DNA of 64,000 nt, from contig DGTQ01000017.1 of NCBI GenBank assembly GCA_002394365.1, positions 188 through 64,187 on the forward strand. The letters run 5' to 3'. The notes beneath the pieces are model-generated. The model worked only from the letters and a program-made list of their open reading frames with translations. It made no database searches and was not told the origin of the DNA. A program made the position numbers and the translations under genes. Shown here piece after piece: positions 36,014-57,845 of the stretch; position 1 is the stretch's first letter, and each line of letters begins with the position of its first letter. The DNA comes from Prevotellaceae bacterium UBA4332. Lineage in GTDB: Bacteria > Bacteroidota > Bacteroidia > Bacteroidales > Bacteroidaceae.

Positions 36014-36099
36014 CAATTTTGCAAAAAACTTCTCTTTTTTGCTATATATTTGACATATATCAAGTGTTGTGTACGCACACAGCGCAATTTTGGGCGTTT

Positions 36100-36317: not shown

Positions 36318-36601
36318 CTGGCGCATGAAAAAAAGAAAGAGTTATGAGGTTCTTGCGCTCCAGTAGGTGCTCAGTCGCAAAGCGGAGCTTGCTCTAGCAA
36401 GCCAACAAGTTGGAGCGATGAGGTCATGAGGTTATGAGGTGTTATATGGATTAAGGAGTTAGAAGTAGATAGAGGTAGATAGAGGACAAATGTTCCAGTT
36501 CTCTGACTGTTAATCGTAATGTCTTCTCACTCCCTCTCACTCCCCCTAAAGCCTGAGAGCGAAGCGACTTTAAGACCTGACACCAAACTTCACCTTAAAA
36601 T

Positions 36602-36812
36602 CCGCATGGTCTCTTTGCGTAAGCTCCGAAGGAGCGTCTTGGCTCTTTGCGTAGAGATGAAAGACTGCTGTTAAGCAGTGCAGGGATTAGCTTTTGTGGG
36701 CACTGAGAACTGGTTCTCAAGTGAACATGAAAGGTAATAACTGCTTACCTCGTATAGAGGGCTTCATCTCGGCTTGGCGAGAAAAAAGAAAAATCCGAGC
36801 TATCGGTGGTAA
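36602..36812 (-). repeat. Family E, copy E3 (core 36654-36770)
   Basis: About 90% identical to E4 over ~145 bp; GAGATGAA/TTCATCTC stem; central TGAGAAC-TG-GTTCTCA. Confidence 0.85.
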
Positions 36813-37218
36813 AAGACAGTAAAAGGGATTTGTAGCGATTTTATTCGGCGAAATGTTAAATTTTAACAAGCTCAAAAGAGCGAAAACATGCAAAAAACAA
36901 GCACAACAGAACATTCTTTCAAAACTCTTTCTTGCTAATATTCAGCACGTTAGCTACAAAGCAGCAAAAGAGGTTGCAGAAGCAGTACTTCCGCGTTCAG
37001 AACTAATGGTTTTAGGCTCTGGAAGCAGTGGTTCCTCTTGCAGAAGTGGCACTTCTGCAAGGGGAACCGAAAAGTGTTAAAATTGTCGGGGGTGGGGAGA
37101 TTTCTATTCTCCCCAGAAGGGAGAGTTAGAGGGGGCTTAGCACCCACGCGCGGTTACTTAGCAAGGGCACGCGGTTGCTAAGCACCCACGTGCGGTTACT
37201 TAGCACCCGCACAAACAG

Positions 37219-37247
37219 AAAAAGGAACGCCGTTTGGCGTTCCTTTT
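37219..37247 (-). terminator. Intrinsic terminator after the 2808-aa protein
   Basis: AAAAGGAACGCC-GTTT-GGCGTTCCTTTT. Confidence 0.85.
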
Positions 37248-37269
37248 ATCTTCATTGCTACTTTCAGCG

Positions 37270-40200
37270 TCATGGCTCAGGTGTAGGTGCAGGTGCAGGC
37301 GTATCAACCTTATTGCCAACATTCACCTTGGCATCACCCGTCACATCAGCGGCGTTGCCACCACCATATACATTGCCGCGTATGTCAACACCCTCAACGG
37401 GAACGTCTTTGAGAGGCTCAGCCTCACCACTCGCCTTTGTTTCGAAGTTGATGGTGCCCAACGTGCCGATGTTGACAGTGGTGTTACCTATAACCTTGGC
37501 AGCATTACCACCACCGAAGACGTTGCCTATGGCACCTATCTTGGTCTTTACGTGGGCAGGCAGGTTTACGGTGTGAGTAGCAACGACATCACCAGTCTCC
37601 TCGTCCACTTCCTCTATCGTCATGTCCTTGCCTTTGAAGCCTGTATCGTTATAGTCACCGGTAGTAGGATAGTTGGTTGGAGTGCCCACCACTTCGTTGA
37701 TGTTCACCACTGGGTTACCCACCATCACGGCAGTCTCACCAAAGCCGCCGCCGTATATGTTGCCTATGCTGGTAAACGACTTCACGTTCACCTGCGGGTT
37801 AGCGTAGAGAGGAGCATCACCGCTTTGCTTTATCGTGCCGTCATCGTTATAGCCGTAAACGGAATAGGCAGCCTCGTTGCCGCCGCCGTACAGCTCACCT
37901 ATTATGATAGGTCGGCAACCCGTCTCCTCTATGTTCACGGTTATTGAGCCCTTGATGGTTCCGCTTTCGTTGTTGCCGCCGAACACGCGCTCATACGTAC
38001 CGTTGGTTATGTTCAGCGTCACGTCACCGTTCATGTCGGCAGCCTCGGCACCGCCATACACAGCCTTCAGTCCTGGGATACAGCCTATGCGTAGCTCAGC
38101 CACGGCATCCATCGGAGCACTCTTGCCACCGCCGTAAGCCTCGTCAACGCAGAAGCCACAACCGTCGTCCGCCTCATCCAGCGTAGTCACGGCAGTCTGC
38201 CTTACGTTACCCTTGGTGTTAGAACCACCGAACACCTTGTGTATTGTTCCGCCATAGATGTTCACCTCAGCCATGCCCGTACCATACGCGTAAGCACTCG
38301 CTCTCCTTTCCTCCTTTGTGTCCATCTCCTCACTGGTCTCCACAGCAGAGTAGTCGTAGTAGCCCACGTTAGCACCAGGGTTCGCCTTGGTAACACCGTT
38401 AATGGTTATGTCATCCTTACCGTTACCGCCTCCGAACACCTCGTCTATCTCGTATGTGCCGTTTACAGTAACGCTCGTAGCAGGTGTAGATGCAGCGTTG
38501 CCGCCTCCATACACCTGTTTGATACTGGTGCGCTCACAACCGTCGATAATCACCTCCGTCTTGTTGTTCACAAGGTCGGCAGGCTCATATTTCGCAAGGT
38601 TACCACCGCCATACACAGCCTTCAGGTCATAGCGTCCCTTTACCTTTGCTGTCTTGTCGCCCTCCTCAGGGTTGGCAATGGTTGTAGCCGCCTCGTTCTG
38701 CGTTGCGTAGATGTGCACCGTCACGTCGCCGAGCGGCGTACCGTTCAGGTTGTTGCAACCGAAGATGCTGCCCTTCACCACGCAACCCTTTGCGTCAGCT
38801 GCAACGTCCTTGTTCAGCTCCACAGTGGCATTGCCCACCGTAGCCGCCACGCCGTCCGTGATGTTGCCTTCGTCATCCGTCTCCAACGTGCCTCTGCCGC
38901 CGCCATACACATTATTATTTATAGTGCCGCCAAGCAGTGACACCTTGGTGTCGCCCGTCACGTTCGACTGCTCACCGCCACCATACACATTGCCTGCCAC
39001 GGTAGTGGTGCCGTTAATGGTGAGCGTAGCATTGCCCGTCACCGTGCCGAGGTGGGTCAAGTCCTCTGTTGTATAGAGAATATGATTTGTGTTATCCACC
39101 CATGAGTCGCCTGTCTTTTTTTGCCAAGTATAGGTCGTTGTAGAGCCTTTTACACCCTCACGATAAGTTCCAAGATCTTGGTAGTAGTAAGGTTCCGTTG
39201 TAAAACCTGTAGCATCCACCTCAACAGAAGGCAGAGATGCCGAGAATCCTGCACCAAAGGCACTGCCCTGAACCTCGCAATTAGTCAGTGTGGAGGTCAC
39301 GGGACCATCTACTTTGCCCAGACTGCCGCCACCATAGAAATTGCCAGTGATTTTGCATCCTGTCAGTGTTGAAGTGACATCGCGGCAGATAGCCAATGAA
39401 AATTTCACATATTCCACATAGATACGTCCACAGTTGTCGGCATTACCAGACATAGGCAGGAATTGGTAGCTGAACTGAGTGGAAACGCCATCATATGTGC
39501 TGCTATAGGACTGAGTGTAGAATCGTCCCAACCACGCATTCCATGAAGCATCATTGCCAGCCTGACTATCATTATGAGGGAAGTTTATCATATTGTTATG
39601 GTTCCTCGGTGCTTGGCGACTGTAGGAGTTGCCACCATAGCCTGCACCAAAGAAGGTTCCAAAGATGCAATTCGTTGCATTGGTGGTAACAGTCTTGCCA
39701 GTACTCATATCACCAAACTTAGGACCACCGCAGAAGAGGTCAATCTTTCCACCAGTTATAGTGGTGTTGAGGTTGCCGGTGACGGGTTTGGCTGCATTGA
39801 TGCCACCTGCGTAGAATTCCCGAATGTCGGCATTTTGCACTTGCCAAGTGATATTGCCTGTATTGTCTGCTCCTTTAGCTTTACCAATACCCTCCATAGC
39901 AGCTCCAGCAACAATGCCAAAGCGGCCACCGTTAATATAGCACTCCGCATTGTCGGCATAACTGGCGACATTGGCAGTATAGAGGCCAGTGAGGTAGAAT
40001 TTGTCATAGTCACCGCCAGTAACCGATACAGGCGGATGTTTTGAATCATGAGATTGATCTTGGTGAGTACCCCGATGGAACTCCTTAAACCATACATTAC
40101 CACCCACATGGAAATAAGTGGTTTTATTGGATCTTCCTCCACTTTGTCCACTCACCCACTGCTCCATAACACCACCTTGCAAAATCAAAGGTGCTTCGAC

Positions 40201-43200
40201 ACGACTGCTGTTGTCGTACTCTAACTGCGTGACGTGGAAGAGTGAGGTATTGGTAGTTTCGAACCAATATAGAGGTTGGAAAATACCTTGATTGTAGGAA
40301 CCCGTACCACCCGTAGATTTCTGTGCCATACCAAGACCCACGATATTCAGGAAGTCCCACTTCGCGGGATGCAACCTGTTACGACCATCATTACGCAACA
40401 TTAGAGAATAGTCTGGCTCATTGTCATGGTCAAGATCGATGGTGGTAACTGTATATTTATAATTACTGCCAATGGCCACGTTATTTCCCGTATATTGATG
40501 GACATTCCCCACAAGTACGACAGCGTAGTCATGAACCGAATTGTCTGTGGGTTTATAAAGTCCATTAGCATTGGTAACTGCTTCACTGATTGAAGTAAAG
40601 ACTCTCTGTTGTTCGCCAGCGATATTATAATTGGTATTGTTTGTGTACTTTTGTCCGCCGCCTACATTAGAAACATCGTAGGCTTCAGTCATCTTGGTAT
40701 TGTATACCACATCAGGATAGGCATCAGCAACATATGCCGCCTTAGCCCAGTAAGGCTCAATGGTTATTGCCGTCACACCTTCCGGCACGTCCCAGTATGC
40801 ACCCTGATTGAACACCCTCTTGCTGGTGCTGTAGAGGTCTTTGTTGGTACACTGGCGGTCAGCAAAGTTATATGCAGGTGCATCGTCACCAGTACTATAA
40901 GTACCAGGCGTACCACCAGTGATGCTGACAATCTTCCATCCCGTTACCACACGATTGCCTGTATAGTTCTTTGTGCCCACATCGTTATAGTAAGGCAGCT
41001 GCACCTTATAGTAGTTGAAGTTGAAGTGGTCGGGGTCCTTGTCGGTGATGTTGAGCGTCAGCGAAGGATAGACAATCTCCGCCCCAGTAGGATGTTCGAA
41101 CTGCGCTCCGTCGCCCATCCGTATGGTAACGGCAAGCGTACCCATATTGCCGCCCTTGTTGCGCTCAGTATATGCAGGCGCATTCTCTGCATCGATGTTA
41201 ACTACTGAGGGATAGTAGCCCGGCTTGGCAAGAACAGGGTAGGGAGTAGAAGAGCCAATCTGTGAGGGCAGCAGTACCCACTTCGCCATCTCTTCCTTGT
41301 CGGAATAGTCACCCGTTGCCCACCAGGCTGCAAGTTCACGGTGGCTGTTCTGCAGATGACGGAAGAACTCGAAACGCTGCAGGAAACGTGTCTCGGCACC
41401 GAGGGCACAGTTATATTTCTTGTTTATGGCTGTATTCTGAATGTAGGCAGACTCGAGACGGAAGTAGTTGAAATTGCTGACACCCGTATTGTCGCCCACA
41501 TTAGTGATAATATAACCGTGATATATAGGAGCTATCGAATCGCCGCTCACCTCACCGTAGAACATGCAGTTCATCACCATGGTCTTGAGGTTTCGGGCGG
41601 TTGTGACAACATTATTGTAACCCACTATACCACCAACATGAGTACCTCCGGAGACATTGGCGTAGCTGAAGCAGTTGATGACGCGCGCCGAGCCGTCGAG
41701 CAGTCCCACGAGTCCGCCCACATAGTTGGAGCCGCTCACCGTGCTGCTGCATGAGGTGATGTGCGTATATCCGCTGTTGTCAATCCTCACCGTGCTGTTT
41801 GTGGCGAGTATGCCGCAGTTGTATATGCGTGTGTCACCCCTTGCCTCGTTGCAGATGGCACCAACGTTGGTGCCTCCGCTGATGCTTACGTTGTCGAGCA
41901 TCAGGTTTTTAATACTTGCGCCGTCAGCGTATGCCACGAACGGAGTACTTAAGCCGCTGAACGTATGGTACTGTCCGTCAATCACGCCAGTGAACGGTGC
42001 GGAGCTCGTTCCGAGCGAGGTAAAGCCAGATTCAAACGTAAAGTCCTCTGCAAGGAGGTAGTGACCGTTCATGTCGGTCATCTCTGACGAACTGTGTATT
42101 TCCAATGGCGCAGGGACAATCTCAAGCCACAGTGTCTGTACATTTGTGCCTTGGTCGCCAGCTGTTGCAGCTTCTGCTTGCTCGGCAAGTGACGTAAACG
42201 GCGTAATACCGCTGAACGCCACCACCTTGGTATGGTCAAAGCGAGGCATGAGGCGCATGTTGCCGTTGGCATCGCCCACTACCATGAAGGTGGCATTGGT
42301 GATGTTGAGCGTAGTCTGGTCGTAGCCTGTAGCAGTCTGCTTGGTGTTGAGGTTCTGCAGCGTCACTGCGCTTGAAGTGCCAGCCCATGTTCCAGCGGTA
42401 AGTGCCGGTGACGAAGTGTTGGCTGTGAAGTAACGCTTGGTATTATACTTACTCTGTATCTGCACATTATAAGGGTCGAAGCCGTTCTTGCCGGCATCAT
42501 AATAGTCTTGCTCGGTTTCGTTCTTACTCTTCGCTTCTGCCTGAGCACCCGACTCGCCTGCATAGCGGTAGCCCATCTCACGGTCGATGTCGAAGTATGG
42601 TCTCAGGTACCATTGCATATCTTCATCAGCCTCCTCAATACTGGCTGGTGCCGCGGCAGCCTCAACGATAGAGCCTGAGGTCTTGGCATATTTACCGCCC
42701 TGCATCAGCAAGAAGGATGAAGGCTGTGTGGCATCAGCCGTTGCTGCTCCTGTATAGGTGCTGGTGTAGCGTGGCTTCACGGTGTAGGTAACGTAGAAGT
42801 CGGTCTTCACGCTCTTATCCTGAACGGGTGATGTTATGTGGAGATATGGTATATCAGCGAGCGATGTTGAATTATGAGTCGTCCTTCTTCCATTATCCAC
42901 CCATTTGTTTTTTTCGTTAAGTTCATATATAACAATATCAGGATCGCTGACCCTATACTTGTGGTAGCCCGTATATTTCTCAGCTTTTGGGTACCACTGG
43001 TATTCCGCTACCATTGGACTGTTAAATTTGCTCAGTTCTTCTGTGTTTACAGCTGTCAAAGCCGCATCTGTGTACATTGGCACACGCATGACCTCCCATC
43101 CGTGTTGGTCAAGCAGGATGACCTGCGGAGCCAGTGACACTTCCTCAAAGGTGAACTGACCTGAACCCATCGAGATGGTCTGATACCAGTGCGTCTCTTC

Positions 43201-45696: not shown

Positions 45697-45719
45697 CTAT
45701 ATTTTCTTAATTATATACG

Positions 45720-45782
45720 ACCCCACCCCTAACCCTCCCAAAGGGAGGGGGTCTCCCTCTTGGGGAGATTTAGAGGGGGTCA
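45720..45782. repeat. GC-rich palindromic family P (CCCCT...AGGGG); copies also 183-210, 601-715, 22908-22925, 29677-29709, 29773-29805, 31168-31200, 37107-37137
   Basis: CCCTCCCAAAGGGAGGG and TCCCC(C)TTGGGGA hairpins followed by TTAGAGGGGG. Confidence 0.8.
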
Positions 45783-45789
45783 TCTTTTA

Positions 45790-48700: not shown

Positions 48701-51700
48701 AGGCGGTCAATGATAGGTGCACCGCTCTCAAAGTCTAAGTGAATGTTGACGATGTGCATCTCGTTGACAGGTGTCACGTCGCCATTATCATCACTCTCGT
48801 TATAGGTGTACTGGTAGATAACGGTGATTACCTTATCCTTGGAGAGGTCCCTGATGTCACTCTCACGGCTAACGTAGAGCGTGGTGGTCTCCGTAGGCTC
48901 GTTGCCCTTGATTACAAAGTCCTTCTGGTCGTTTGTCAAATTGCTATAGTCATCATGGTTTATAACCCATCCGGCAATTACATCACTGCTAGGCCCACTT
49001 GTGGCTTCGCTGCCTATCACGCCGGAGCCATTCTTCCTGTTGGTTACTGAGTGAGTGCCGGTATAACCTGTATGACAGTAGTAGTAGGTTACAGCAGCAG
49101 AGGTACTGTTGCTAACCGTTACCTTAGACACCTTAGCCTGATCCTCAGACGGGAGTGCAAGATAGGTACTTGTCGGGATTATCTGTCCCTTGGTATATAC
49201 CATGCTGCCGAGACTGACGGGGTCATCACTCGTCACGATGTAGATGTCTTCACTTCCCACCATGTTGGCAGGCACTACTATCGGTGTGTAGTTAGCCTTC
49301 TCGTTGGTAAGTGCCTCATACTGTAAGCGTGTAAGCTGTGTATCTGTCGTTATGTTTGATAATGCCGGATCTACATAAGAAGCATTAAGTGGGTGTTCTG
49401 CGTCGCCCTTGTATATAGCCACATACTCCACATTCTGCTCCTGGTTATATGGAGCACCATAGGCGGACTTGCCTGGGTATGTCTTATCTATGAGCACGTC
49501 GAAGGCATCATAGTTGAACCTAAATTCGTTCTTGTCACGGTCGTCAGAGGTAAGCGAAGCCCATCCCTCAAGCGCGCTGTACTTTTCACTACTGCTGTAG
49601 CTCTTGCCGCCATAGAGTCCCTCAGAGGAACATATATATGCATCGGTAAATGAGTTGCCTATCTCTGTAGCCATAGCACCAAACTCACTCTTCAGGACAT
49701 CGATGCTGTCATTGGTGAACAGGTCGCCATATACCAGATATGTCTCGTCATTAAGCCTCAGCGTGCTTATACACATCTGGGCAGCCGCAAACTTAGCATG
49801 TGCTGATGGAGCCTGAGTTGCGAGAGCATCATATTCAGTCTTCGGAATAGCCGTACCCTTGCTGACGCTCTTGCTTACATCGTTATATGTATAGGTAACA
49901 GCCTCCTTTGCCACGTATGCAGGCTCTACTACAGCCTGTCCGTCGGGTTTTTCTGCTATCTTATTATATTCGGTCACCACGTCAGATGTTATAATCTCAC
50001 CCACGCTATAGTTACGCTGACCATATACACCGCCAACAGTGCTATAAGTTGGACCTGGAACATAATTTGCCTGAACAGTCTCCGGCTTAATGTATGTCAA
50101 GGAGTCAATCTTATCGCCTCCCGTCTTAGATGAATACCATCTGCTCCATGCCGGCGGTGTATCCATCTTGAAGTCGAGCACGTAGCCTGTATTGTGGCTG
50201 ATGTTGTTAGACAGGTGAACGTCTTCGTTTCCGCTGTCATCATCCAGCCTTACCTCGCCTGTATTTATGTTAACATAAGTAGTGTCAACGAAGAGAGCCT
50301 GCTCGTCTGCCGGCAACTGACTCCAGTCCCAGTAGGTTATTACGTCGTTGAGCTTATACGTTACGCTGTTATTGCTAACCTTTACTTCCTCGTTACTGCC
50401 GAGAGGCTCTCCGCTCTTGTTATAGTAAGCATACTTGTTAGGCTTTACGTCAAGCAGCTGCAGCTTGCCGTGTGAGCCTGCCGTGATGGTGAGCGGTATG
50501 TGCTTTGACCTGCTGTAAGCCGTTGGCGCACCCGTGTAGGCAGAGATTACCTGGTCATAGATGTATATTGAGCCCTTGACATACCAGTAGTGAGCCTCAG
50601 AGAAGTCCGCCTTAGTATGGTCATACTCAAGGTTGTTAGGATAACAGTCGTCGATAATGGTTTTCGCCTTACCGTGTATGAAATTACCTGATGTCTGGAT
50701 ATACTCAAGTTCGGACTCGTCATACCTATACATCTTATATGTACGCAAGCCTCCGTCAGTGTCGCCTGGTTTTGGCCTGTTAAAATCAGACAGTCTCACC
50801 CTCTTGTAGTCCACATCATAACGCTTTCCGTGCTCGTTCTTGGCATACACGTAGCCACCGCCAATGGCATCAGCCTTGGCGTTGATAAGGTCGAGCTCCA
50901 CCACACCAGTGATGTAGCCATACTCCTTGCCACTCTTTGTCACCGCGCCTGTAGGCTCGTTAACCAGTTCGAGGAACACGCCAGAGGCGAGTGCCACCTG
51001 GTTATGACACGTAGCAGTATTACGCTTACGGCTGTTTGGGTTGTCTGCCTTCCAGTCGTGGTAAGTGGTTTTGCCGTCGGCATCTCCAGAGTCTGTCTCA
51101 CGAGTGTCGGTCATCAGCACGTCACTGGTGAGGTTGCCCAGATAGTTCACCACGCTGTATATGCCGAAGTAGTTGCCGTGCTCCTTGTTGAGTTCATCCG
51201 TCTCGCCTGCTGGTGACACTACTTTCTTCAGTGAGAGCTCACCCACACGGTTGATGGTGTAGTTGGTATTGTCCTGCACCTCCGTCACACGGTCTCGTGC
51301 TCCCTGGAGCACCATACGGCTTCCGAACACGCCCACGAGGTCTGCACGCTGCAGGGTGTTGAGCAGTCTGCCTGAATAGATAGAGCAGACACCGTCCTCT
51401 GTCCAGTATGTACTGTTCTGATAGTCTGAATACAGTTCCTTATATTCATCCTCATATATTTGCTGACCTTCATTATATCCCCTGTAGGTCACACCATCTA
51501 TGGTTCGGGAAGGTACGTTCTGCCTACATGTATAGCGCAGGCGGAAGTAAGCACGCTCACGGTCGGTAAGGTCGTTATCATATTGTTCCTTAGTGACTGT
51601 GGATGTCAGGTTATAATAGTCGGTGCCGTAGTTGGAGATATGCAGCTCGCGGTAGCCATCAACCAGTGAGAGGTTGCCGCCGCCGTACAGACCGCCAGTG

Positions 51701-54700
51701 TGCTCGGTGCCTATGGTGATGAGGTCGCGGCGATAAACGTCGCGCAGGGATGCCGTCACGTTGCCGAACACGGTCTTGGTGTTGGCATACACCTTATCAG
51801 AGCCGTCAGCCACGTTGCCGCCTCCGAATACGGCGTTGTGGATAATGATACCCTTGTCGTCGAGGGCATTCCACTTAGCACCGTCGGTAGCATCGTTCTT
51901 GCCCTTGAGCTTGTTCAGGTCCTCCAGAGGCACATATTGATACTGTGTATAGGTATTACCACCGATAGTAACTTTCTGACCTGCCTTTACCTGAGCCTTA
52001 GCCTCTACCACCACCTTACAGTCTTCGGTCCATTTATCATCTGTCTTAGTGCCGTCCTCAGTGTAATAATAGTGGTTAGGTGATGGCCTGTAATCAGCAT
52101 CTTCACATTTCTCACCCTTTCCATACACATAGCCGAGGTCGCCGCCGCCGAATACGTTGCCGTAGCCCTCAGTGTAGTTGGTCGCCGTGCCTACCTCGCC
52201 GCCATATATGTAAGCTTCGGTCTGTCCGAAGACGTAGCCGTCGGTGTAGAGCGTACCTACACGACCGAGGTTGTCGTAGCCCTTGCCGCCTGCAAACACG
52301 TCGCGCAGCACGTGACCGTTATACATTTCTATGTGGGTCTTGCCGAGCTTGAGGTTGCTTCTTAGGGTGCGCTCACTGTTCTGGTAGCCGCCAACCGTTA
52401 CGTCGCCACGGCCTATGGCAGCAATCTCGCCGCCACCGAAGAGACTGTTACGGATTTTGCCGTTCCACATCTTTACATTAGTCTTGTCAACGCTACTATT
52501 GTCGATGTAACCACCGCCAAATACATTGCCACTGCCATAAAGGCGATTAGCACCTACGTGGTCTGTCCAAGTCTCGTCGTGCAACTTCTCCTGATACCAG
52601 CCATGAACTTCAGCATCATTGTTAGGATCATAGGCAGGATTACGATAAATATCAACCTCGTAAGCAGGAACTTTCTCTATGCCTGCAGGCGGAGTTGTGG
52701 GTTTATCCTCTAAATACACATAGCCTATGTAGCCGTTGTTGAGCGTCACGTTGCTGGTGCCATACACGGCACCGCCCTCGCCACCGCCATAGACGTTACG
52801 CTGTATGGCTGGCACGCCAACAAGGTAGCCATAGCCCGTTGGCAGGGTTGCCTGATCCTTGCGGATGCCTATGATGACATGGGTCTCGCCGAGGATGTCA
52901 CCCTCGGTTGTGGCATCAATGCCACCGTTATGGTGACCCACGCTGCCCTTCCAGCCGCCGCCATAGACATTACGCACGGTACCACCCTCTATGTATGCCG
53001 TAGCAGAGGCTATGAAGCCGCCGCCGATATTGAGGGAGTCCTTGACGGAACCTGTGGTGCCAGCGGCATAGAGGTCTTTCTTCACCGTGCCGCCGAGCAG
53101 GTCAATGTATGTGGTGCCATAGACGTTGCCACTGTTGGCTACATCATTGTAGCCCAGTCCACCGCCATAGCAGTAGCCGCCCACATAGGCGCCCTGCTTG
53201 ATGTGTACGTTGGTGTTGTATTTCTCTGGTCGTGAAGACTCGCGCTCATGCAGCTTGTTGCCGAGGGCGAGGTTGTCGGTGAGCCCGTTGTCGGTATAGC
53301 CTTCTGGCAAGTCAACATAGAGATTGGTCTTGGTGGTCTTCCACTTTGTCACGGTCTCCTTGTTGATAACCATACCCATCTCTCCACCGCCGTAAGCCTC
53401 ATAGACATTGGCACCGCTTTCGAGGTTCACCTCGGTATATTGTGACCATGTGTCTCTACCATAGCCTGCGCCATAGACGGTAGCCTGATAGCCTTTCTCC
53501 TTGTTAGACCATACATTGCTGCGGATGTTCACCTTGCCGTAGAAGGTGCGGCGCGCGTTGTTGTTGCCGCCATAGACGGCGTGGCGCACGATGGCATCGT
53601 TGCTGCGGTAGTCAACGTTCGCCTCGAATGCATCGCAAGGTCGGTCGTTGGCACTACGTGTTCCGTAAGCGCCGCCGAAGATACTGTTTGTAACAATGGT
53701 AGAGCCATCGGGCACGTTGACGAGCGTGCGACGGGTAATGCCCTCATGGTAGCTTGCGCCATAGACAGCATCCACCTCGCCAGCCATGAGGTCGATAACG
53801 GCTGTGGCCAACTTAGGATCTGCATCTGAAGCACTCCTCGTTATGCCCATGCCTAAACCGTTGAAGGAACCTGCGCCAAACACCTTGAGGCTTCTGAGCT
53901 TATCATAAGCGTCGGGTATGTCGATAAGCACATAGCTGCGGTCTTGCATCATGTCGCCAATGTGCGCCTTAGCGGCACTATCAGAACTGCCCTCACTGCC
54001 CAAGCCTGCTCCATACACGGCATCTACCCTACTGTCGTTGTTACGCTCTGGGCGAATGTGCACGAAAGCATTGTTGAGGTAAGGCTTATTGACTTCCTTG
54101 GTCTCGCTGCTGTTAAGGAGAAGGGCAAGCACGGTTGACTTATAACCGCCCGCACCGTCGGAGATTCTCTCGTAGTTGTAGCCGCCGTATGCTCCGCCGA
54201 ATATCTCGCCTACGTGTCCCTGCAGATACTCCACGTATGATGATGCCGTAGCCGCAGAACCGCTGTCGAACATCTTGGAGCGCAAGTCTGAGCGCACCCT
54301 TTCCTTGAAGTCGGCACTGCCCTGGATGTTGCCGCCGAGGTCGTTGCCGCCATATACATCATCTATAATATATGGGAAGCCGCCACTGCCTATGATGGTC
54401 TCTGCGTGTCCGAGTATGTCGGCATTTGCAGCACCTCCAAAGGTGGAGTTGACGCGACCGTTGCCAAGAGTAACGTGGGTGTCGCCAGCCACAAGTCCTT
54501 CGAAGCCGCCGCCATAAAGGTACTCAGCTTCAGTCATACCACCTGTTGCGGCACCCTTCACGTTGCCCACGAGGTTGACGTGGGTGCTGTAGTTTGGGTT
54601 ATAGGAGTAGCTGCCTGCCACGTTCTTGCCTATGGCACCCTTCTCACCGCCACCATAGACGTTGAAGTGGTAGCCGTTCCTGACATTGATGGTAGTGGAA

Positions 54701-57012
54701 CCCCATACCTCGGAGTTCTCACCATAGCCGCCGCCGAAGATAGCCATAGAGGTGAAAAGAAGCTCGTCACGCTGTATCGCTGGGTCAACGCCTGATGCTC
54801 CCGTGCCGAACACCTCGGTTGTATCTACCGTGCTCTGGTTGAGGTTAATAAGGATATCGCCGTTGACATAGCCGCTGTTGTAGCATCCGCCATAGACGTT
54901 GGCACCCATCAGACGGCGCGCCTCGCCATCCTTGCCGTTGGTGTTCCAATCAAGACCGTTCTTAGCGTCATTAAGCTTACCAGGCTTGAGTTTCAAGCCC
55001 TCGAAATCCATGCGAATCTTAGGATTGCCTGCCGTGGGAGCCTCGGTAACGCCGCCCATATGCTCGGCATTGTATGTTGTGGCAGCTACGTAGGCATCGT
55101 TACATCCGCCTACAAACTTCTTATATATAATAATGGAATTAAGCTCATCCATGGTGAAGGTGCCCGGAGCCGTCATGCTGCCCACATTGCCACCAAGGAA
55201 GAATGAGCCTACATAGGTAGAGAAAGACTCATAGTCGACAGGGTCGCCCTTAGCCTTGGAGTCGAACACCACCTGAGGCACCAGCGGCATGGCAGCACCC
55301 TGCATATATGCAGCGAACTGGTCGGCATCAAGGAGGTTGATGGAGCTGAAAGGCGAGCTATCACCAGAGAGGTCGATGCGCTTCATGGTGCGAAGCACGC
55401 CCTCCACGGCACCCGTGACGGAATTGCCCGCTTCATCCTTGTCAGCCTCGTTATAGCGTATCATGTTGCGGCCGTTATTGCCCAGGAACGCATTTTCGAC
55501 TATAACGCGGGAGCCTATCTTCAGCTCCACTATGGGGTTAGCCTTGGTGGTCTTGAGCGACGCGCTGTTGCCTCCGCAATATACTGAACCCTTGATGATG
55601 GTAGGCTTATTATGGTCAGGCGAGTAGAGACGCAGGGACACCTGCTCGGCATTAGGACGGAAGTCGTTGAGCGCCTGAACGGAGGTCTTGCCCGCAGGGA
55701 TGGTGTAATAGAAGTCGCCGTAGGTCTCGTTGTCAGCAAGGGCTGGGTTGTCGGTATAGGCGTAGGAGCCATTGCCACCGCCATACACGTCGCCATTCAC
55801 GCTGGCATAGATACCTATGGCACTGCCGCCATAGACCCTGCCAGTGATGTCGTTGCCGCCATACACATTATTTATATCGCCCCCGCGCACGAGCACGCGA
55901 GCAGAAAGTCCCTTCGGGAACTTATAGCCCGGAAGATTATCCGCTGGGGTATAGACACCGTTGACGGTTGGCATGACATCTGCCATGCGGCAACCGCCAT
56001 AGAGGTTATCGACCTTGATGTTGGAAGCGGCAGGTATCTCGAGCAGTATGCCCGTGGAGGCGGTCATGTTGCCTCGGTTGCCTCCGCTGTAGAGGTTGCG
56101 TATGCGACCCCGCCTGAGGTTCCATGTAGGGACGATGTCCATGTCAGCCTTGTTGTTGCCGCCAAAGAAGCGGTCGAACTGGTACTCGGACAGACTCGGG
56201 TCTGAGTATGCGAGGTTTATGCCCATGTTGTCGTGCAGACGCGCATCGGTGAGCAGTTCGTTGCCTCCTGCGTCTGTCACGCTCGTTACCACGTTGCTGA
56301 TGTTGTCGAAGTTGATGACGGTCTTCTCAGTCACCGTCACGTTATTGCCGCCGCCGTAGCCGTATGCCACGGTGCCGCCGAGCACCTCGAGGTAAGCCTT
56401 AGCCACCTCGGGCTTATTGACATCCACAAGGGTGGTGTCGCCGATGGTCACATCATAGAGTTCGTTAGCCTTCTTAGCAGAATAGGCATAGTCGCCGTTG
56501 CCGCCGCCGTAGAGCTGACCCATAAACACCTTGGGGGCATCAAGAGGAGCGATGGTGTCACCCTCGACAATCTGGGTCTTGGTGGATATGCGCACATAGG
56601 TATTCCACGTGCTGTCAACTTTGTTTTCAGACGCCTGTGTGAGCACGCTGGGCACCGTAGCCTCTTCAGAGAGAGCCGACGGCGAACCTATGTTACCTGA
56701 AATATCGTTTCCACCATAAACTTTGTCGATGACGATATAGGAGGAGGCGTTCTCGCCGTCGATATTGACGAGGGCACCGCCCGTGATGTCAGCCTGGCGC
56801 GCTCCGCCAAACACCTGATGAATGCTGCCACCATAGACATTGACGGCGGTGTTGCCGCCTGTATCACCGTGATTGCCTCCACCATATACACTGCCGCCGA
56901 TGCTGATAGCAGGCTGCGCACTGACTCTGGTTGGCGCAACCAACATCAACACTATTGCTAAAATACTTAATGTCAGCTTGACATAATTATGTCTATTCAA
57001 TGTTCCTTTCAT
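45790..57012 (-). CDS. Giant secreted repeat protein (3740 aa): N-terminal (V/I/F)YGGG beta-solenoid, GLUG-like region, T9SS-type C-terminal domain
   Basis: Signal peptide ending VSA; about 35-40 xxV(Y/F)GGG repeats over the first ~1800 aa; WMPIG...FGGNVHGDGHYVSGL; C-terminus VLVYGVGGALVK...IHVPSGLVYAV...KLFVK. Confidence 0.82.
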   Translation of the reverse strand: MKGTLNRHNYVKLTLSILAIVLMLVAPTRVSAQPAISIGGSVYGGGNHGDTGGNTAVNVYGGSIHQVFGGARQADITGGALVNIDGENASSYIVIDKVYGGNDISGNIGSPSALSEEATVPSVLTQASENKVDSTWNTYVRISTKTQIVEGDTIAPLDAPKVFMGQLYGGGNGDYAYSAKKANELYDVTIGDTTLVDVNKPEVAKAYLEVLGGTVAYGYGGGNNVTVTEKTVINFDNISNVVTSVTDAGGNELLTDARLHDNMGINLAYSDPSLSEYQFDRFFGGNNKADMDIVPTWNLRRGRIRNLYSGGNRGNMTASTGILLEIPAASNIKVDNLYGGCRMADVMPTVNGVYTPADNLPGYKFPKGLSARVLVRGGDINNVYGGNDITGRVYGGSAIGIYASVNGDVYGGGNGSYAYTDNPALADNETYGDFYYTIPAGKTSVQALNDFRPNAEQVSLRLYSPDHNKPTIIKGSVYCGGNSASLKTTKANPIVELKIGSRVIVENAFLGNNGRNMIRYNEADKDEAGNSVTGAVEGVLRTMKRIDLSGDSSPFSSINLLDADQFAAYMQGAAMPLVPQVVFDSKAKGDPVDYESFSTYVGSFFLGGNVGSMTAPGTFTMDELNSIIIYKKFVGGCNDAYVAATTYNAEHMGGVTEAPTAGNPKIRMDFEGLKLKPGKLNDAKNGLDWNTNGKDGEARRLMGANVYGGCYNSGYVNGDILINLNQSTVDTTEVFGTGASGVDPAIQRDELLFTSMAIFGGGYGENSEVWGSTTINVRNGYHFNVYGGGEKGAIGKNVAGSYSYNPNYSTHVNLVGNVKGAATGGMTEAEYLYGGGFEGLVAGDTHVTLGNGRVNSTFGGAANADILGHAETIIGSGGFPYIIDDVYGGNDLGGNIQGSADFKERVRSDLRSKMFDSGSAATASSYVEYLQGHVGEIFGGAYGGYNYERISDGAGGYKSTVLALLLNSSETKEVNKPYLNNAFVHIRPERNNDSRVDAVYGAGLGSEGSSDSAAKAHIGDMMQDRSYVLIDIPDAYDKLRSLKVFGAGSFNGLGMGITRSASDADPKLATAVIDLMAGEVDAVYGASYHEGITRRTLVNVPDGSTIVTNSIFGGAYGTRSANDRPCDAFEANVDYRSNDAIVRHAVYGGNNNARRTFYGKVNIRSNVWSNKEKGYQATVYGAGYGRDTWSQYTEVNLESGANVYEAYGGGEMGMVINKETVTKWKTTKTNLYVDLPEGYTDNGLTDNLALGNKLHERESSRPEKYNTNVHIKQGAYVGGYCYGGGLGYNDVANSGNVYGTTYIDLLGGTVKKDLYAAGTTGSVKDSLNIGGGFIASATAYIEGGTVRNVYGGGWKGSVGHHNGGIDATTEGDILGETHVIIGIRKDQATLPTGYGYLVGVPAIQRNVYGGGEGGAVYGTSNVTLNNGYIGYVYLEDKPTTPPAGIEKVPAYEVDIYRNPAYDPNNDAEVHGWYQEKLHDETWTDHVGANRLYGSGNVFGGGYIDNSSVDKTNVKMWNGKIRNSLFGGGEIAAIGRGDVTVGGYQNSERTLRSNLKLGKTHIEMYNGHVLRDVFAGGKGYDNLGRVGTLYTDGYVFGQTEAYIYGGEVGTATNYTEGYGNVFGGGDLGYVYGKGEKCEDADYRPSPNHYYYTEDGTKTDDKWTEDCKVVVEAKAQVKAGQKVTIGGNTYTQYQYVPLEDLNKLKGKNDATDGAKWNALDDKGIIIHNAVFGGGNVADGSDKVYANTKTVFGNVTASLRDVYRRDLITIGTEHTGGLYGGGNLSLVDGYRELHISNYGTDYYNLTSTVTKEQYDNDLTDRERAYFRLRYTCRQNVPSRTIDGVTYRGYNEGQQIYEDEYKELYSDYQNSTYWTEDGVCSIYSGRLLNTLQRADLVGVFGSRMVLQGARDRVTEVQDNTNYTINRVGELSLKKVVSPAGETDELNKEHGNYFGIYSVVNYLGNLTSDVLMTDTRETDSGDADGKTTYHDWKADNPNSRKRNTATCHNQVALASGVFLELVNEPTGAVTKSGKEYGYITGVVELDLINAKADAIGGGYVYAKNEHGKRYDVDYKRVRLSDFNRPKPGDTDGGLRTYKMYRYDESELEYIQTSGNFIHGKAKTIIDDCYPNNLEYDHTKADFSEAHYWYVKGSIYIYDQVISAYTGAPTAYSRSKHIPLTITAGSHGKLQLLDVKPNKYAYYNKSGEPLGSNEEVKVSNNSVTYKLNDVITYWDWSQLPADEQALFVDTTYVNINTGEVRLDDDSGNEDVHLSNNISHNTGYVLDFKMDTPPAWSRWYSSKTGGDKIDSLTYIKPETVQANYVPGPTYSTVGGVYGQRNYSVGEIITSDVVTEYNKIAEKPDGQAVVEPAYVAKEAVTYTYNDVSKSVSKGTAIPKTEYDALATQAPSAHAKFAAAQMCISTLRLNDETYLVYGDLFTNDSIDVLKSEFGAMATEIGNSFTDAYICSSEGLYGGKSYSSSEKYSALEGWASLTSDDRDKNEFRFNYDAFDVLIDKTYPGKSAYGAPYNQEQNVEYVAIYKGDAEHPLNASYVDPALSNITTDTQLTRLQYEALTNEKANYTPIVVPANMVGSEDIYIVTSDDPVSLGSMVYTKGQIIPTSTYLALPSEDQAKVSKVTVSNSTSAAVTYYYCHTGYTGTHSVTNRKNGSGVIGSEATSGPSSDVIAGWVINHDDYSNLTNDQKDFVIKGNEPTETTTLYVSRESDIRDLSKDKVITVIYQYTYNESDDNGDVTPVNEMHIVNIHLDFESGAPIIDRLMAPTTVLPGTTVGMNQPRVTPGAYELIGGGWEIFDSKYNAEHHTNGQEYVNNSTPMYYYQDGYYVAYYAKSYLGKTYSNPVQFSVANYHDLKKVMDAKTHHYYIDHKDAHLSGKRIPKVYINDYTADGENGLDLLKDLYDLSLISSSTAGITVDGDSITTAGHKFKGHKLLNSSTVRGADDLDFILRTNLAVGSTPWMPIGSGEETCFGGNVHGDGHYVSGLTGSLFDKLCGNVYNLGAMGAFTTGGIANSGDGMAENCWVKDTTGVEITNPIISSPDNQSQLRNSYYLSAGAAGTPGGSRVAATATQFYNGEVAYNLNRFYLQKRYNLNRGGQTAITDTAYVNSRYGNVDFIYADGEIPEEDDVRLNRTEGKYVPLYPDDYIFFGQALNYGYVVGAEHQDVPSPLVKDGDYIETGLTGNRVLRAPAYFRSSVMSKAFFNPYAVFAKHKNGDENTLVHNGMTAIDFTGYNDVFDGSTGEAKAYVNNNDSPNANFFAPLLDAETALTNFKNFGLTKNLLAYTEAPETGDEATVAGKTGHAVSLALEETRYAETDGKYGTVAPKDESQVMAHWVQRNAEGVYKATYDHFLVDCNDFYAPIGYTFDGSSRMWHQRIPDTYAGLNTGWESISLPFTVDMVTTQQKGELTHFYTGNEKGRVGHEYWLRKYTAIAKSTDKSSTMEATFSSLAKGDASDDGFDNKHYINSFLWDYLHQHLDKLDGEGQNKYYKDIDVTYEGYPQQLGATPYIIGFPGKEFYEFDLSGEWKAPKLPSGFERQVVTFASVMGATINASDADMTGVTQSSTQGNYTYTYTFKPNYLNEDIAAGSDIYVMKSDGSKYVKVPAEGDATQLLPFRAYFVRTGGQNSMNIIFSEAEEKPDVTPEQDDKPNITPKGDAEDDADGKITFTSGVGTITAKSTIDEPRVVLVYGVGGALVKAFDLKRNSSVTIHVPSGLVYAVRTVAGDYSSKLFVK

Positions 57013-57047
57013 GATTTATAATTGTACGCGCGTAAGGTGCTACGGTG

Positions 57048-57079
57048 CAAAGTTACAACTTTTTAACACAATCTCCAAA
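57048..57079 (-). promoter_or_regulatory. Sigma-A promoter for the giant-protein pair
   Basis: GTTTGGAGATT...TAACTTTG with 20-bp spacer; same extended -33 as 22382-22413. Confidence 0.8.
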
Positions 57080-57194
57080 CTTTTTGCATATTATTTTCTC
57101 TGTTTTGCACACAAAAGCGATTAAATGCATGTTTTTAAGCGTTTTGCAGAAATGACAATCCCTTGTTTTTGCATGCTCCTTAACAGATTTTATG

Positions 57195-57597: not shown

Positions 57598-57815
57598 CCT
57601 TGGCTCCTTGCGTAGAGATGAAAGACTGCCGTCAGGCAGTGCAGGGATTGACTTTTGTGGGCACTGAGAACTGGTTCTCAAGTGAACATGAAAGGCAATA
57701 ACTGCTTACCTCGTAGAGGGCTTCATCTCGGCTTGGCGAGAAAACTTGAAACTCGGCTTGGCGAGAAAAACATAAAAAAACGGACTATCCGTGAAAATCC
57801 GAATAATCCGTGGTA
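57598..57815 (-). repeat. Family E, copy E4 (core 57615-57729)
   Basis: Near-identical to E3; local duplication of CTCGGCTTGGCGAGAAAA; 57786-57815 is the exact reverse complement of 36100-36129. Confidence 0.85.
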
Positions 57816-57845
57816 TAAGAGAAGGGGGAAGGTCAGGAGGGGGCT

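What the first reader, a model, noticed from the sequence alone, without database searches (positions are those of the whole stretch)
37270..57012. Tandem giant glycine-repeat beta-solenoid proteins with complementary architecture
Two co-oriented genes (3740 and 2808 aa, 93 bp apart, one upstream promoter, one downstream terminator) share an xx(V/I/F)(Y/F)GGGxxx repeat spaced about 30-50 aa apart. The 3740-aa protein starts with ~35-40 repeats directly after its signal peptide and ends in a T9SS-like CTD. The 2808-aa protein ends with ~20 repeats and has no recognisable CTD. The domain order is mirrored: repeats then GLUG-like region, versus GLUG-like region then repeats. Inference: the open solenoid edge at the C-terminus of one could stack on the open N-terminal edge of the other. 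This would build a very long surface filament and let the CTD-less partner be exported by hitch-hiking. No catalytic motif is recognisable, and no characterised function for this repeat type is known to me.
Basis: partly seen in the sequence, partly recalled or inferred. Interest (0 to 1): 0.72.

Follow-up and report, generated by a model that had tools for sequence, protein, structure and literature searches.

The report
Paired giant beta-helix surface proteins
A rumen Prevotella co-transcribes two giant beta-helix surface proteins, only one of which carries the usual export-and-anchor tag; their open helix ends are unusually conserved, so the two may join end to end into a long adhesive fibre, but that joining has not been tested.

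Summary
Two minus-strand ORFs lie 93 bp apart: A (45790-57012, 3740 aa) and B (37270-45696, 2808 aa). They share a [VIF][YF]GGG coil repeat that no Pfam or NCBIfam model covers. Profile comparison shows that A's N-terminal array and B's C-terminal array are homologous (98.9%). AlphaFold2 gives confident all-beta models (pLDDT 90 and 84), and the weak PDB matches are mostly beta-helix or other solenoid folds.

A's tail does not hit the T9SS model itself, but 32 of 38 aligned relatives' tails do. B has no CTD and no lipobox. Every complete relative also stops 12-37 residues after its last coil, so B is not truncated. Metatranscriptome contigs cover both genes and cross the gap.

A B-type gene follows the A-type gene in nearly all loci with enough downstream DNA, among the 80 loci examined of 305 found in Prevotellaceae/Bacteroidales genomes (mostly rumen MAGs). 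The family has three forms: tip, link and anchor. First and last coils are far more conserved than internal coils. Where B is split into two genes, junction-specific coils appear.

Some B-type genes lie without any A-type gene nearby. Verdict: a real, uncharacterised two-component adhesin system. Docking is plausible at about 40%.

The parts
57048..57055 (-). Promoter-like -7 box (TAACTTTG, Bacteroidetes TAnnTTTG type), ending 36 nt upstream of A's ATG
   Evidence: Read from the sequence. The consensus is from my own knowledge of Bacteroides promoters. Metatranscriptome contigs end at 57019.
45790..57012 (-). Gene A, 3740 aa: anchor-type giant beta-helix protein (signal peptide, coil array, unassigned middle, GLUG-like stretch, conserved C-terminal region, divergent T9SS type A CTD)
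56917..57012 (-). A signal peptide (aa 1-32, cleavage ...VSA|Q)
   Evidence: Read from the sequence. Model residues 1-34 are disordered. Equivalent AQ|Q sites occur in about 50 of 58 relatives with a scorable N-terminus.
56833..56916 (-). A 'N-start' coil (aa 33-60, QPAISIGGSVYGGGNHGDTGGNTAVNV): the helix begins within 4 residues of the mature N-terminus
   Evidence: 54% identical to B's last coil
51613..56916 (-). A coil array (aa 33 to about 1800; 24 strict and about 31-40 degenerate coils)
   Evidence: AlphaFold2 of aa 1-900 gives pLDDT 89.9 and pTM 0.90
47788..48135 (-). A GLUG-like stretch (aa about 2960-3075, CFGGNVHGDGHYVSGL...)
   Evidence: Motif pattern. Weak profile hit to 3n6z, a putative IgA1 protease, at E 0.015. 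No Pfam hit.
45793..46020 (-). A C-terminal domain (aa about 3665-3740), a divergent T9SS type A sorting domain
   Evidence: Aligned in register with relatives' tails, of which 32 of 38 hit TIGR04183. A's own tail is below threshold.
45717..45783 (-). GC-rich hairpin in the intergenic gap (-41.7 kcal/mol, z -3.5), with no T tract
37270..45696 (-). Gene B, 2808 aa: tip-plus-link-type protein with no CTD and no lipobox
   Evidence: An 82%-identical relative, P0398, has the same N-terminus.
45586..45696 (-). B signal peptide (aa 1-37, ...AWA|VD)
   Evidence: Read from the sequence. No lipobox.
45037..45519 (-). B beta-trefoil (ricin-type) lectin-like region (aa about 60-220)
   Evidence: PDB MITSUBA-1, E 2.4e-8, and ThreeFoil. 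Weak PF14200.
44821..45003 (-). B CHB_HEX_C_1 / Fn3_assoc Ig-like domain (aa 232-292)
   Evidence: PF13290 at E 3.3e-11 and PF13287 at E 1.1e-9
41647..42108 (-). B GLUG / Peptidase_M26_N-type region (aa about 1197-1350)
39727..41646 (-). B conserved core (aa about 1351-1990), shared with stand-alone B-type proteins of about 1560 aa
37318..39726 (-). B coil array (aa about 1991-2793; 14 strict and about 15-20 degenerate coils)
   Evidence: AlphaFold2 of aa 1900-2808 gives pLDDT 84.1 and pTM 0.83
37306..37401 (-). B 'C-end' coil (aa 2766-2797, EGVDIRGNVYGGGNAADVTGDAKVNVGNKVDT), followed by 11 Pro/Ala-rich residues and the stop codon
37220..37247 (-). Intrinsic-terminator-like hairpin (12-bp stem, then TTTTTCTGTTTG)

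Best explanation
A and B are the two co-transcribed components of a cell-surface fibre or adhesin of a rumen Prevotella. Both are built on one uncurated beta-solenoid coil repeat ([VIF][YF]GGGN..V.G.T.V).

A is the anchor. After Sec export and cleavage at Q33 its helix begins almost at the mature N-terminus. [quoted passage not shown]

B is the distal part. It carries a ricin-type lectin-like domain, an Ig-like CHB_HEX_C domain and a GLUG module, then a conserved core and a helix. The helix stops with no structured element beyond its last strand and no sorting domain.

The most likely way B becomes part of a surface structure is that its specially conserved last coils dock, helix end on helix end, onto A's specially conserved first coil. 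This would give a tip-(link)-anchor rod. B would reach the surface only together with A.

Shown: gene structure, homology of the two arrays, beta-solenoid fold class, the T9SS tail by alignment with relatives, conserved absence of a CTD in B, synteny, co-transcription, extra conservation of terminal coils, and split and fused gene forms.

Inferred: docking, piggy-back export, and the adhesin function.
For: Homology and fold:
- hhalign of A 36-420 against B 2231-2620 gives probability 98.9%, E 1.3e-17.
- AlphaFold2 models are all-beta with pLDDT 89.9 and 84.1. In A the first strand sits 4 residues after the cleavage site; in B the last strand is followed by about 15 residues without secondary structure, the last 11 below pLDDT 50.
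- Foldseek's weak hits are mostly beta-helix or other solenoid proteins.

Sorting signals:
- 32 of 38 aligned tails of A relatives hit TIGR04183. One relative is named a T9SS type A sorting domain protein by NCBI.
- All complete B-type ORFs stop 12-37 residues after their last coil. This includes 119 of the 149 representative giants examined; none of the 149 matches the CTD profile built from A-family tails.

Synteny:
- 305 related loci were found and 80 kept. Nearly every one with about 10 kb of downstream DNA has a B-type gene after the A-type gene. The only clear exception is L033.

N-start rule:
- About 50 of 58 A-family ORFs with a scorable N-terminus read ...AQ|Q-I-x-I-G-G-N-V-Y-G-G-G-N. 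These loci were selected with A's C-terminus, so the N-terminal rule is an independent observation.

Terminal coil conservation (bits outside the 5-residue anchor):
- First coil 55.7; last coil 65.3; random internal coils 20.7 +/- 0.6.
- Conservation decays inward from both ends.

Link proteins and split forms:
- Link proteins carry their own signal peptide, an N-start and a C-end (L017, L037, L086, L088; 62 of 149 representatives).
- In split loci a tip-core ending ...GSTTVNIxx* is followed by a link that starts Q-V-x-V-x-G-N-V-Y-G-G-G-N-L-A. The window's fused B lacks exactly these junction coils.
- A's first coil is 54% identical to B's last coil.

Expression:
- RNA contigs cover 37280-57019 only, and one 12.3-kb contig crosses the gap.
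Against: - There is no direct test of contact.
- B-type proteins of about 1560 aa occur with no A-type or N-start gene within 10 kb (L003, L004/L087). Docking to an adjacent anchor therefore cannot be universal.
- The hits used to measure C-end conservation were selected with a C-terminal query. This inflates that measure, though not the N-start measure.
- The block-wise conservation analysis showed the terminal coils only slightly above average within the closer relatives.
- Export of a cargo without a CTD by riding on a CTD cargo is, to my knowledge, not established for T9SS.
- A's own CTD is below HMM thresholds.
- T9SS genes could not be looked for outside the 64-kb window.
Confidence: 0.42

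Rival explanations
1. A and B are independent paralogous adhesins. In this view the conserved last three coils of B-type proteins are a new kind of C-terminal export or sorting signal, or a folding nucleus, recognised by T9SS or by another outer-membrane route. The conserved first coil is a folding or capping element. A and B are co-expressed but never stack.
For: - The C-end module is conserved at the position where Gram-negative secretion signals usually sit.
- B-type proteins occur without any A-type neighbour.
- 62 of 149 giant representatives have both end types and no recognisable CTD, so the family as a whole needs a CTD-independent way out.
- Losing an internal C-end coil on fusion is also what a signal model predicts.
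Against: - This view does not explain why the first coil sits exactly at the mature N-terminus and is much more conserved than the second coil (55.7 against 34.1 bits).
- It does not explain why N-start coils are also lost on fusion, nor why tip, link and anchor genes cluster so regularly.
- The C-end matches no known sorting-domain model.
Confidence: 0.3
2. A and B are accessory or tip subunits of a type V (Mfa/FimA-like) pilus, comparable to the CTD-bearing Mfa5 of Porphyromonas gingivalis. In this view B is incorporated by the pilus machinery rather than by helix stacking.
For: - In L002 the pair follows genes for a DUF3575-OmpA protein, several lipoproteins and a FimA/Mfa2-like protein.
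- A conserved lipoprotein gene lies directly upstream of the A-type gene in 59 of 80 loci.
Against: - The window and its closest relatives (L006-L011) have none of these genes. In the window A is preceded by 830 bp of repeat-rich non-coding DNA and then housekeeping genes.
- A and B have no lipobox and no fimbrillin domain.
Confidence: 0.12
3. The open-ended helices drive homotypic self-association, in the manner of bactofilin or curli. This would give a matrix, an S-layer-like coat or cell-cell aggregation, rather than a defined B-to-A junction.
For: - The modelled helix termini have no ordered element beyond the end strands.
- Many link-type proteins have both kinds of end.
- Weak Foldseek hits include CsgA and RsaA.
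Against: - Two distinct junction flavours co-occur in an ordered way: C1 with link-type N-starts and C2 with A-type N-starts.
- Gene order and copy number are regular, with one anchor per locus.
Confidence: 0.1
4. B is a decayed gene that lost its CTD through truncation or a frameshift.
For: - B ends in a Pro/Ala linker-like tail (TPAPAPTPEP*).
- B is followed by 1.6 kb without ORFs.
Against: - Every complete relative ends the same way, including proteins on contigs of 100-260 kb and in the isolate Prevotella lacticifex.
- A terminator follows B's stop codon directly.
- B is transcribed.
- No CTD-like reading frame lies downstream.
Confidence: 0.02

Closest known systems
T9SS type A CTD cargo adhesins of Bacteroidota (TIGR04183 / PF18962 Por_Secre_tail proteins)
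   Same: A has a Sec signal peptide with Gln at +1, very large size and a modular surface-protein make-up. Its C-terminal region of about 75 aa aligns with tails that hit TIGR04183.
   Different: - A's own tail is below threshold.
- The coil repeat is in no curated family.
- A is almost always paired with a relative that has no CTD.
Parallel beta-helix adhesins of type V secretion (autotransporter passengers Hap, pertactin, EspP, Ag43; TpsA proteins HxuA, EtpA, HpmA)
   Same: Long Gly/Asn-rich beta-helical rods that present adhesive functions. They are prominent among the weak Foldseek hits.
   Different: - No beta-barrel translocator and no TPS domain.
- Foldseek E values are no better than 1.8e-3 and TM-scores are at most 0.2.
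- The export tag is a T9SS CTD.
Beta-solenoid proteins that polymerise through open ends: bactofilins, curli CsgA nucleated by surface-bound CsgB (my own knowledge)
   Same: Helices without caps. Curli uses an anchored nucleator plus added subunits, which parallels the proposed anchor (A) plus added unit (B).
   Different: - No sequence or family relation (no Pfam hit).
- These subunits are thousands of residues long rather than 100-150.
- Polymerisation here is only inferred.
Type V pili with the T9SS-dependent accessory protein Mfa5 (P. gingivalis; for Mfa5 as an ancillary tip protein of the mfa1 operon see PMC7835359)
   Same: - In many relatives a large CTD-bearing protein is encoded at the 3' end of a fimbrial-type operon.
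- Both follow a tip/shaft/anchor logic.
   Different: - A and B are not fimbrillins and have no vWA domain.
- The window has no pilus genes.
- Joining would be by helix stacking, not by strand exchange after proteolysis.
GLUG / Peptidase_M26_N-containing surface proteins (IgA1 protease ZmpA N-terminal region; Bacteroides 3n6z)
   Same: B 1235-1294 matches PF05342 and PDB entry 6xjb.
   Different: - No M26 catalytic domain.
- The single HExxH (HEETH at B 832) is not conserved in relatives.

Membership tests
T9SS type A cargo (TIGR04183 / PF18962) | N-terminal Sec signal peptide | tested here: met
   A has ...PTRVSA|QP. Model residues 1-34 are disordered.
T9SS type A cargo (TIGR04183 / PF18962) | C-terminal domain of about 70-100 aa that matches the Por_Secre_tail model | tested here: inconclusive
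   A's last 141 aa give no hit at E<=10. Its tail aligns in register with 37 relatives' tails; 32 of the 38 aligned tails hit TIGR04183, best E 9.3e-8.
T9SS type A cargo (TIGR04183 / PF18962) | T9SS machinery genes (sov/sprA, porK-N, porV, porU) in the same genome | not testable with these tools
   Only the 64-kb window is available, and none of the ORFs I scanned in it matched a T9SS component (the ORFs at about 27.4-34.7 kb were not scanned).
T9SS type A cargo, applied to protein B | Any CTD (type A TIGR04183 or type B TIGR04131) | tested here: not met
   No hit for the whole protein or for the last 150 aa at E<=10. Relatives end the same way.
Bacterial lipoprotein, applied to A and B | Lipobox with Cys at the cleavage site | tested here: not met
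   No [LVI][ASTVI][GAS]C in the first 50 aa of either protein.
GLUG / Peptidase_M26_N (PF07581 / PF05342) | Match at or above the Pfam gathering score | tested here: inconclusive
   B scores 27.5 bits as a whole protein and 29.4 bits as a fragment, against a cut-off of 27.7. PF07581 scores 15.7 against 20.5. A has no Pfam hit.
M26 IgA1 metalloprotease | Catalytic domain with a conserved HExxH | tested here: not met
   No peptidase domain. HEETH at B 832 is not conserved in relatives.
Beta-solenoid / parallel beta-helix fold class | Tandem coils of about 25 aa predicted as stacked short strands | tested here: met
   The shortest period is 25-27 aa. Models are all-beta with pLDDT 84-90. The weak Foldseek hits are mostly beta-helix or other solenoid proteins.
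Autotransporter (type Va) | C-terminal beta-barrel translocator (PF03797) | tested here: not met
   No Pfam hit.
Two-partner secretion TpsA | N-terminal TPS domain (PF05860) | tested here: not met
   No Pfam hit in the N-terminal 900 aa of A at E<=10 or in whole B at E<=0.1.
RTX / T1SS adhesins | GGxGxD nonapeptide repeats (PF00353), no Sec signal, C-terminal T1SS signal | tested here: not met
   No PF00353 hit. Both proteins have Sec signal peptides.
Chlamydial Pmp repeat (PF02415) and bactofilin (PF04519) | Match to the family model | tested here: not met
   No Pfam hit at E<=10 on the repeat regions.
Type V pilus subunit (FimA/Mfa; PF06321, PF08842) | Lipoprotein precursor with a fimbrillin fold | tested here: not met
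   A and B have no such hit and no lipobox. Only a gene upstream of the pair in related locus L002 has it.

The most novel reading that the evidence does not exclude
Rumen Prevotellaceae and other Bacteroidales may build surface fibres from separately exported giant beta-solenoid proteins. These would snap together head to tail through dedicated open terminal coils, in the order tip (lectin/GLUG head, C-end), optional links (N-start plus C-end, up to about 8000 aa) and one anchor (N-start plus T9SS CTD). There would be at least two orthogonal junction types. The CTD-less components would then cross the outer membrane by riding on the anchor through the T9SS. That would be both a new way of assembling a fibre and the first case of piggy-back export by this secretion system.
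Probability: 0.3. Interest if true: 0.85.

Novelty: new variant of a known kind. Interest (0 to 1): 0.68.

Why it matters
- Scale: the family has about 1000 clusters at 50% identity, with proteins of 1.4-8 kaa. They are among the largest genes of rumen Prevotellaceae, are expressed in rumen metatranscriptomes, and are absent from Pfam and NCBIfam.
- Open question: how can very large Sec-exported proteins with no CTD, no lipobox and no barrel reach the surface of a Bacteroidota cell? This family raises that problem, and the tip/link/anchor logic gives a concrete answer that can be tested.
- Possible payoff: if docking is real, it would be a new modular way to build long adhesive fibres. It would also extend what T9SS can carry, and it bears on how Prevotella attaches to plant particles or to other cells in the rumen.
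- Practical route: a cultured carrier, Prevotella lacticifex JCM 34664 (L055), makes experiments possible.

Tried and rejected
- Full-length homologue search with A timed out, so three sub-queries were used instead. That database returned only proteins shorter than about 1600 aa, so the architectures of full-length relatives had to be read from fetched loci.
- Pfam and NCBIfam scans of the repeat regions, of A's middle part and of both tails gave nothing, even at E<=10.
- PDB sequence search with A 1850-2900 gave nothing.
- Foldseek against the PDB gave no significant match for either model.
- Rfam found nothing in the window.
- B as a truncated pseudogene: rejected.
- HExxH protease idea for B: rejected, because the motif is not conserved.
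- The flanking 148-nt direct repeat as a sign of a mobile cassette: not pursued. The same repeat pieces are scattered through other intergenic regions of the window.
- Conservation by 30-residue blocks within the closer relatives did not single out the terminal coils. Only the motif-anchored analysis across distant representatives did, and its C-end half carries a selection bias.
- A mirror-tree or covariation test of B C-ends against A N-starts was considered and dropped. Shared phylogeny would confound it with only about 35 pairs.
Full report
**1. What is in the window**

Two long ORFs lie head to tail on the minus strand. A runs 45790..57012 (3740 aa) and is upstream. B runs 37270..45696 (2808 aa). 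They are separated by 93 bp.

A starts with a signal peptide (...PTRVSA|QP). B has a longer one (...SEAWA|VD) and no lipobox.

The motif [VIF][YF]GG[GA] occurs 24 times in A (aa 42-1775) and 14 times in B's C-terminal third (aa 2015-2776). The shortest spacing is 25-27 aa. A coil HMM built from these sites finds 31 copies in A's array and 15 in B's. A loose pattern finds about 40 and about 20.

Directly after B's stop codon there is a 12-bp hairpin followed by a T-run (37247..37220). Upstream of A there is a Bacteroidetes-type -7 box, TAACTTTG, at 57048-57055 (the consensus is my own knowledge). The 93-bp gap holds a strong GC hairpin (-41.7 kcal/mol, z -3.5) without a T tract.

**2. Expression**

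Four metatranscriptomic runs hold near-identical sequence. None of their contigs runs past either end of the 37150-57120 stretch, and the listed pieces span only 37280..57019. One contig of 12,261 nt (39357-51617, no differences) crosses the A-B gap, and a second short contig does too.

This fits one transcription unit that begins just downstream of the -7 box and runs through both genes. These are assembled contigs, and some DNA carry-over into such libraries cannot be excluded.

**3. Domains**

No Pfam or NCBIfam model hits A at all. None hits either repeat region, even at E<=10.

| Region of B | Evidence |
|---|---|
| aa about 60-220, ricin-type beta-trefoil | PDB MITSUBA-1 at E 2.4e-8; weak PF14200 |
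| aa 232-292, CHB_HEX_C_1 / Fn3_assoc | PF13290 at E 3e-11 |
| aa 1235-1294, Peptidase_M26_N / GLUG | Borderline Pfam score; PDB 6xjb at E 3.6e-6 |

A has the same F-x-G-x-hDG-x-G-H-x-h-S-G-L pattern at about 2960-3075. Its only support is a weak profile hit to 3n6z (E 0.015).

The single HExxH in B (aa 832) is not conserved in relatives. No catalytic site is evident.

**4. The two repeat arrays are homologous beta-solenoids**

Profile-profile comparison of an A N-terminal alignment with a B C-terminal alignment gives probability 98.9% and E 1.3e-17, aligning A 36-420 with B 2231-2620.

AlphaFold2 results:
- A 1-900: pLDDT 89.9, pTM 0.90, almost all short strands. Residues 1-34 are disordered and the first strand is 37-43.
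- B 1900-2808: pLDDT 84.1, pTM 0.83, all-beta. The last strand is at model residues 890-894. No further secondary structure follows, and the final 11 residues fall below pLDDT 50.

Foldseek against the PDB finds nothing significant (best E 1.8e-3 and 5e-2, TM at most 0.2). The weak hits are nevertheless mostly beta-helix or other solenoid proteins:
- autotransporter passengers;
- TpsA exoproteins;
- phage tailspikes;
- GH110 and PL6 enzymes;
- CsgA and RsaA.

I could not inspect the coordinates. In the secondary-structure output neither model shows a helix or any other ordered element beyond the end strands.

**5. A's tail is a divergent T9SS type A sorting domain**

A's last 141 aa give no TIGR04183 or PF18962 hit. 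Relatives found with A's C-terminal 841 aa end in ...VRIVN.aGitv.tFtIqPGETvEt....GVYIV....G.Y.KKL.VK.

Of 38 aligned tails, 32 hit TIGR04183 (best E 9.3e-8). A's tail aligns with them in register. NCBI names one relative a 'T9SS type A sorting domain-containing protein'.

I therefore treat A as T9SS cargo on the strength of that alignment. Formal membership remains inconclusive.

**6. B's ending is a family trait**

Relatives of B's C-terminal 909 aa all stop shortly after a last coil that reads ...GNVYGGGNxAEVTGxTxVxIGKKxE*. They include complete proteins of about 1560 aa, with their own signal peptide, encoded on contigs of 100-260 kb.

In the fetched loci, every B-type ORF with its stop codon inside the locus ends 15-32 aa after its last motif. 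B is not a truncated gene.

**7. Synteny**

A scan of one genome per species with the alignment of A's C-terminal region found 305 loci. The best 80 were kept. Almost all are MAGs of Prevotella, Prevotellaceae or other Bacteroidales, many of them labelled as rumen or foregut samples of ruminants. One is the isolate Prevotella lacticifex JCM 34664.

In nearly every locus with about 10 kb of downstream DNA, a B-type gene follows the A-type gene. It lies either next to it or after one to five other genes. L033 is the one clear exception.

The converse does not hold. B-type proteins of about 1560 aa sit alone or as a tandem pair with no A-type or N-start gene within 10 kb (L003, L004/L005, L087).

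In 59 of 80 loci, and in L001 and L002, a conserved lipoprotein gene precedes the A-type gene. In L002 a DUF3575-OmpA gene and a FimA/Mfa2-like gene lie further upstream. The window and its nearest relatives (L006-L011) lack these genes.

**8. Three architectures and special ends**

The A family shows an N-start rule. About 50 of 58 ORFs with a scorable N-terminus read signal peptide ...AQ|Q-I-x-I-G-G-N-V-Y-G-G-G-N, so the helix begins at the mature N-terminus. These loci were selected with A's C-terminus, so this is an independent observation.

A search of 1.84 billion cluster representatives with B 2209-2808 found 1237 clusters at E<=1e-3 and 1019 at E<=1e-10. The best 149 are proteins of 1.4-8 kaa. 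They fall into these classes:

| Class | Number of 149 |
|---|---|
| Link type: N-start and C-end | 62 |
| Tip type: C-end only | 57 |
| C-end, N-terminus possibly incomplete | 1 |
| Other C-terminal tails | 29 |
| Matching the CTD profile built from A-family tails | 0 |

Information content outside the 5-residue anchor motif shows that the terminal coils are special:

| Coil | Bits |
|---|---|
| Last | 65.3 |
| 2nd from last | 52.6 |
| 3rd from last | 49.7 |
| 4th from last | 37.9 |
| 5th from last | 32.2 |
| First | 55.7 |
| Second | 34.1 |
| Third | 25.6 |
| Random internal | 20.7 +/- 0.6 |

One caveat applies. The hits were chosen with a C-terminal query, which favours C-end similarity. 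The N-start result carries no such bias.

Within the closer relatives, block-wise conservation puts the terminal coils only slightly above average.

**9. Split and fused forms**

In at least eight loci (L014, L017, L037, L039, L051, L058, L073, L088) B's equivalent is two genes:
- a tip-core that ends ...GNVFGGGNxGxVEGSTTVNIxx*;
- directly after it, a link with its own signal peptide that starts Q-V-x-V-x-G-N-V-[YF]-G-G-G-N-L-A and ends with the usual ...VTGxTNVxIGKK coil.

In the window's fused B, the tip-core's penultimate coil runs straight into what is the link's third coil. The junction coils are missing.

There are thus two junction flavours. The tip-core C-end goes with the link-type N-start, and the link or B C-end goes with the A-type N-start.

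A's first coil and B's last coil are 54% identical over 24 aa.

**10. Interpretation**

The firm part is this. A and B are a conserved, expressed pair of giant beta-solenoid surface proteins. A carries a T9SS tag, and B carries lectin-like modules and no tag.

- helices that begin or end with no further ordered structure, at exactly the mature N-terminus and the C-terminus;
- extra conservation of those ends;
- link proteins that carry both kinds of end;
- the ordered tip/link/anchor gene sets;
- the loss of junction coils on fusion.

It also gives B a route out, by riding on A through the T9SS. T9SS is thought to carry folded cargo (my own knowledge).

The main rival is that the C-end module is a new export signal and the proteins act separately. 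It accounts for the B-type genes found alone, but not for the N-start rule.

A role as type V pilus accessories, like Mfa5, is suggested by the upstream genes in many relatives. It cannot apply directly to this window.

I put docking at about 0.4 and the independent-signal view at about 0.3.

**11. Novelty**

T9SS-anchored giant adhesins are a known kind. Three things appear undescribed in the curated libraries (Pfam 2025, NCBIfam 2026):
- the uncurated coil family;
- its CTD-less members;
- the tip/link/anchor grammar with dedicated end coils.

Three keyword literature searches also turned up nothing relevant.

Noticed in passing
window 36638-36785 and 57599-57744; also 36097-36158 against 57757-57818: The A-B pair is bracketed by a 148-nt direct repeat (93.9% identical) and by a 62-nt inverted repeat (90%). 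Pieces of the same elements recur in other intergenic regions (23638-23755, 22769-22815, 8313-8365, 2114-2163) and at 45635-45664. They look like dispersed intergenic repeats rather than cassette ends.
   Followed up: partly
window 35615-37269: About 1.6 kb downstream of B has no ORF of 100 aa or more. It is rich in short repeats, including a 46-nt tandem-like pair at 35801-35945. Rfam finds nothing.
   Followed up: partly
window 45142-45807: Contig depth in all four metatranscriptome runs jumps 5- to 12-fold in this one bin, which covers B's start and the intergenic hairpin. Loose ends occur at 45625. The region shares a 30-nt repeat piece with the flanks, so repeat-derived k-mers or a separate abundant small RNA are both possible.
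   Followed up: no
window 8929-22122 (minus strand): Three tandem multi-modular pectate lyase genes (1846, 1379 and 1068 aa) carry CBM77, Listeria-Bacteroides repeats and CHB_HEX_C / Fn3_assoc domains. This points to a pectin-degrading organism.
   Followed up: no
window 61691-63112 (plus strand): A 473-aa protein with a CotH kinase domain (E 2e-47) lies next to housekeeping genes.
   Followed up: no
L001 8727-9962, L002 9022-9993, and the 5' flanks of 59 of L006-L085: A conserved lipoprotein gene (323-411 aa, no Pfam family) sits directly upstream of the A-type gene in most relatives. It is absent from the window and from its closest relatives. In L002 it follows FimA/Mfa2-like and DUF3575-OmpA genes.
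   Followed up: partly
Related loci, e.g. L018 12643-15327, L022 12743-16219, L076 12498-18610, L041 12655-14094: Genes lying between the A-type and B-type genes fall into two recurring kinds. One kind is proteins of 340-1520 aa that end in a short T9SS-like tail (...KGxYIxxGKKxxIK). The other is proteins of about 430-500 aa that end ...CKTMNCxAQAxCRTKDSWW.
   Followed up: no
Representative proteins P0399, P0401, P0403, P0419, P0422, P0434 and others: A subset of giant family members ends not with the C-end coil but with a Gln/Pro-rich linker and a conserved ...NAATE[SA]xQxR[ST]... tail. This may be another sorting signal.
   Followed up: no
L001 (about 14490-14548), L002 (about 13626-13666), L037, L052: Frameshifts split several A- or B-type genes, at different positions in each. 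They could be assembly errors in repeat-rich DNA or real on/off switching.
   Followed up: no
L004/L087 21480-24692 (minus strand): A protein of 2500-2600 aa with fn3 domains and a Por_Secre_tail is encoded convergently, about 2 kb from the stand-alone pair of B-type genes. Its N-terminus lies outside the fetched DNA, so I could not check whether it has an N-start.
   Followed up: partly
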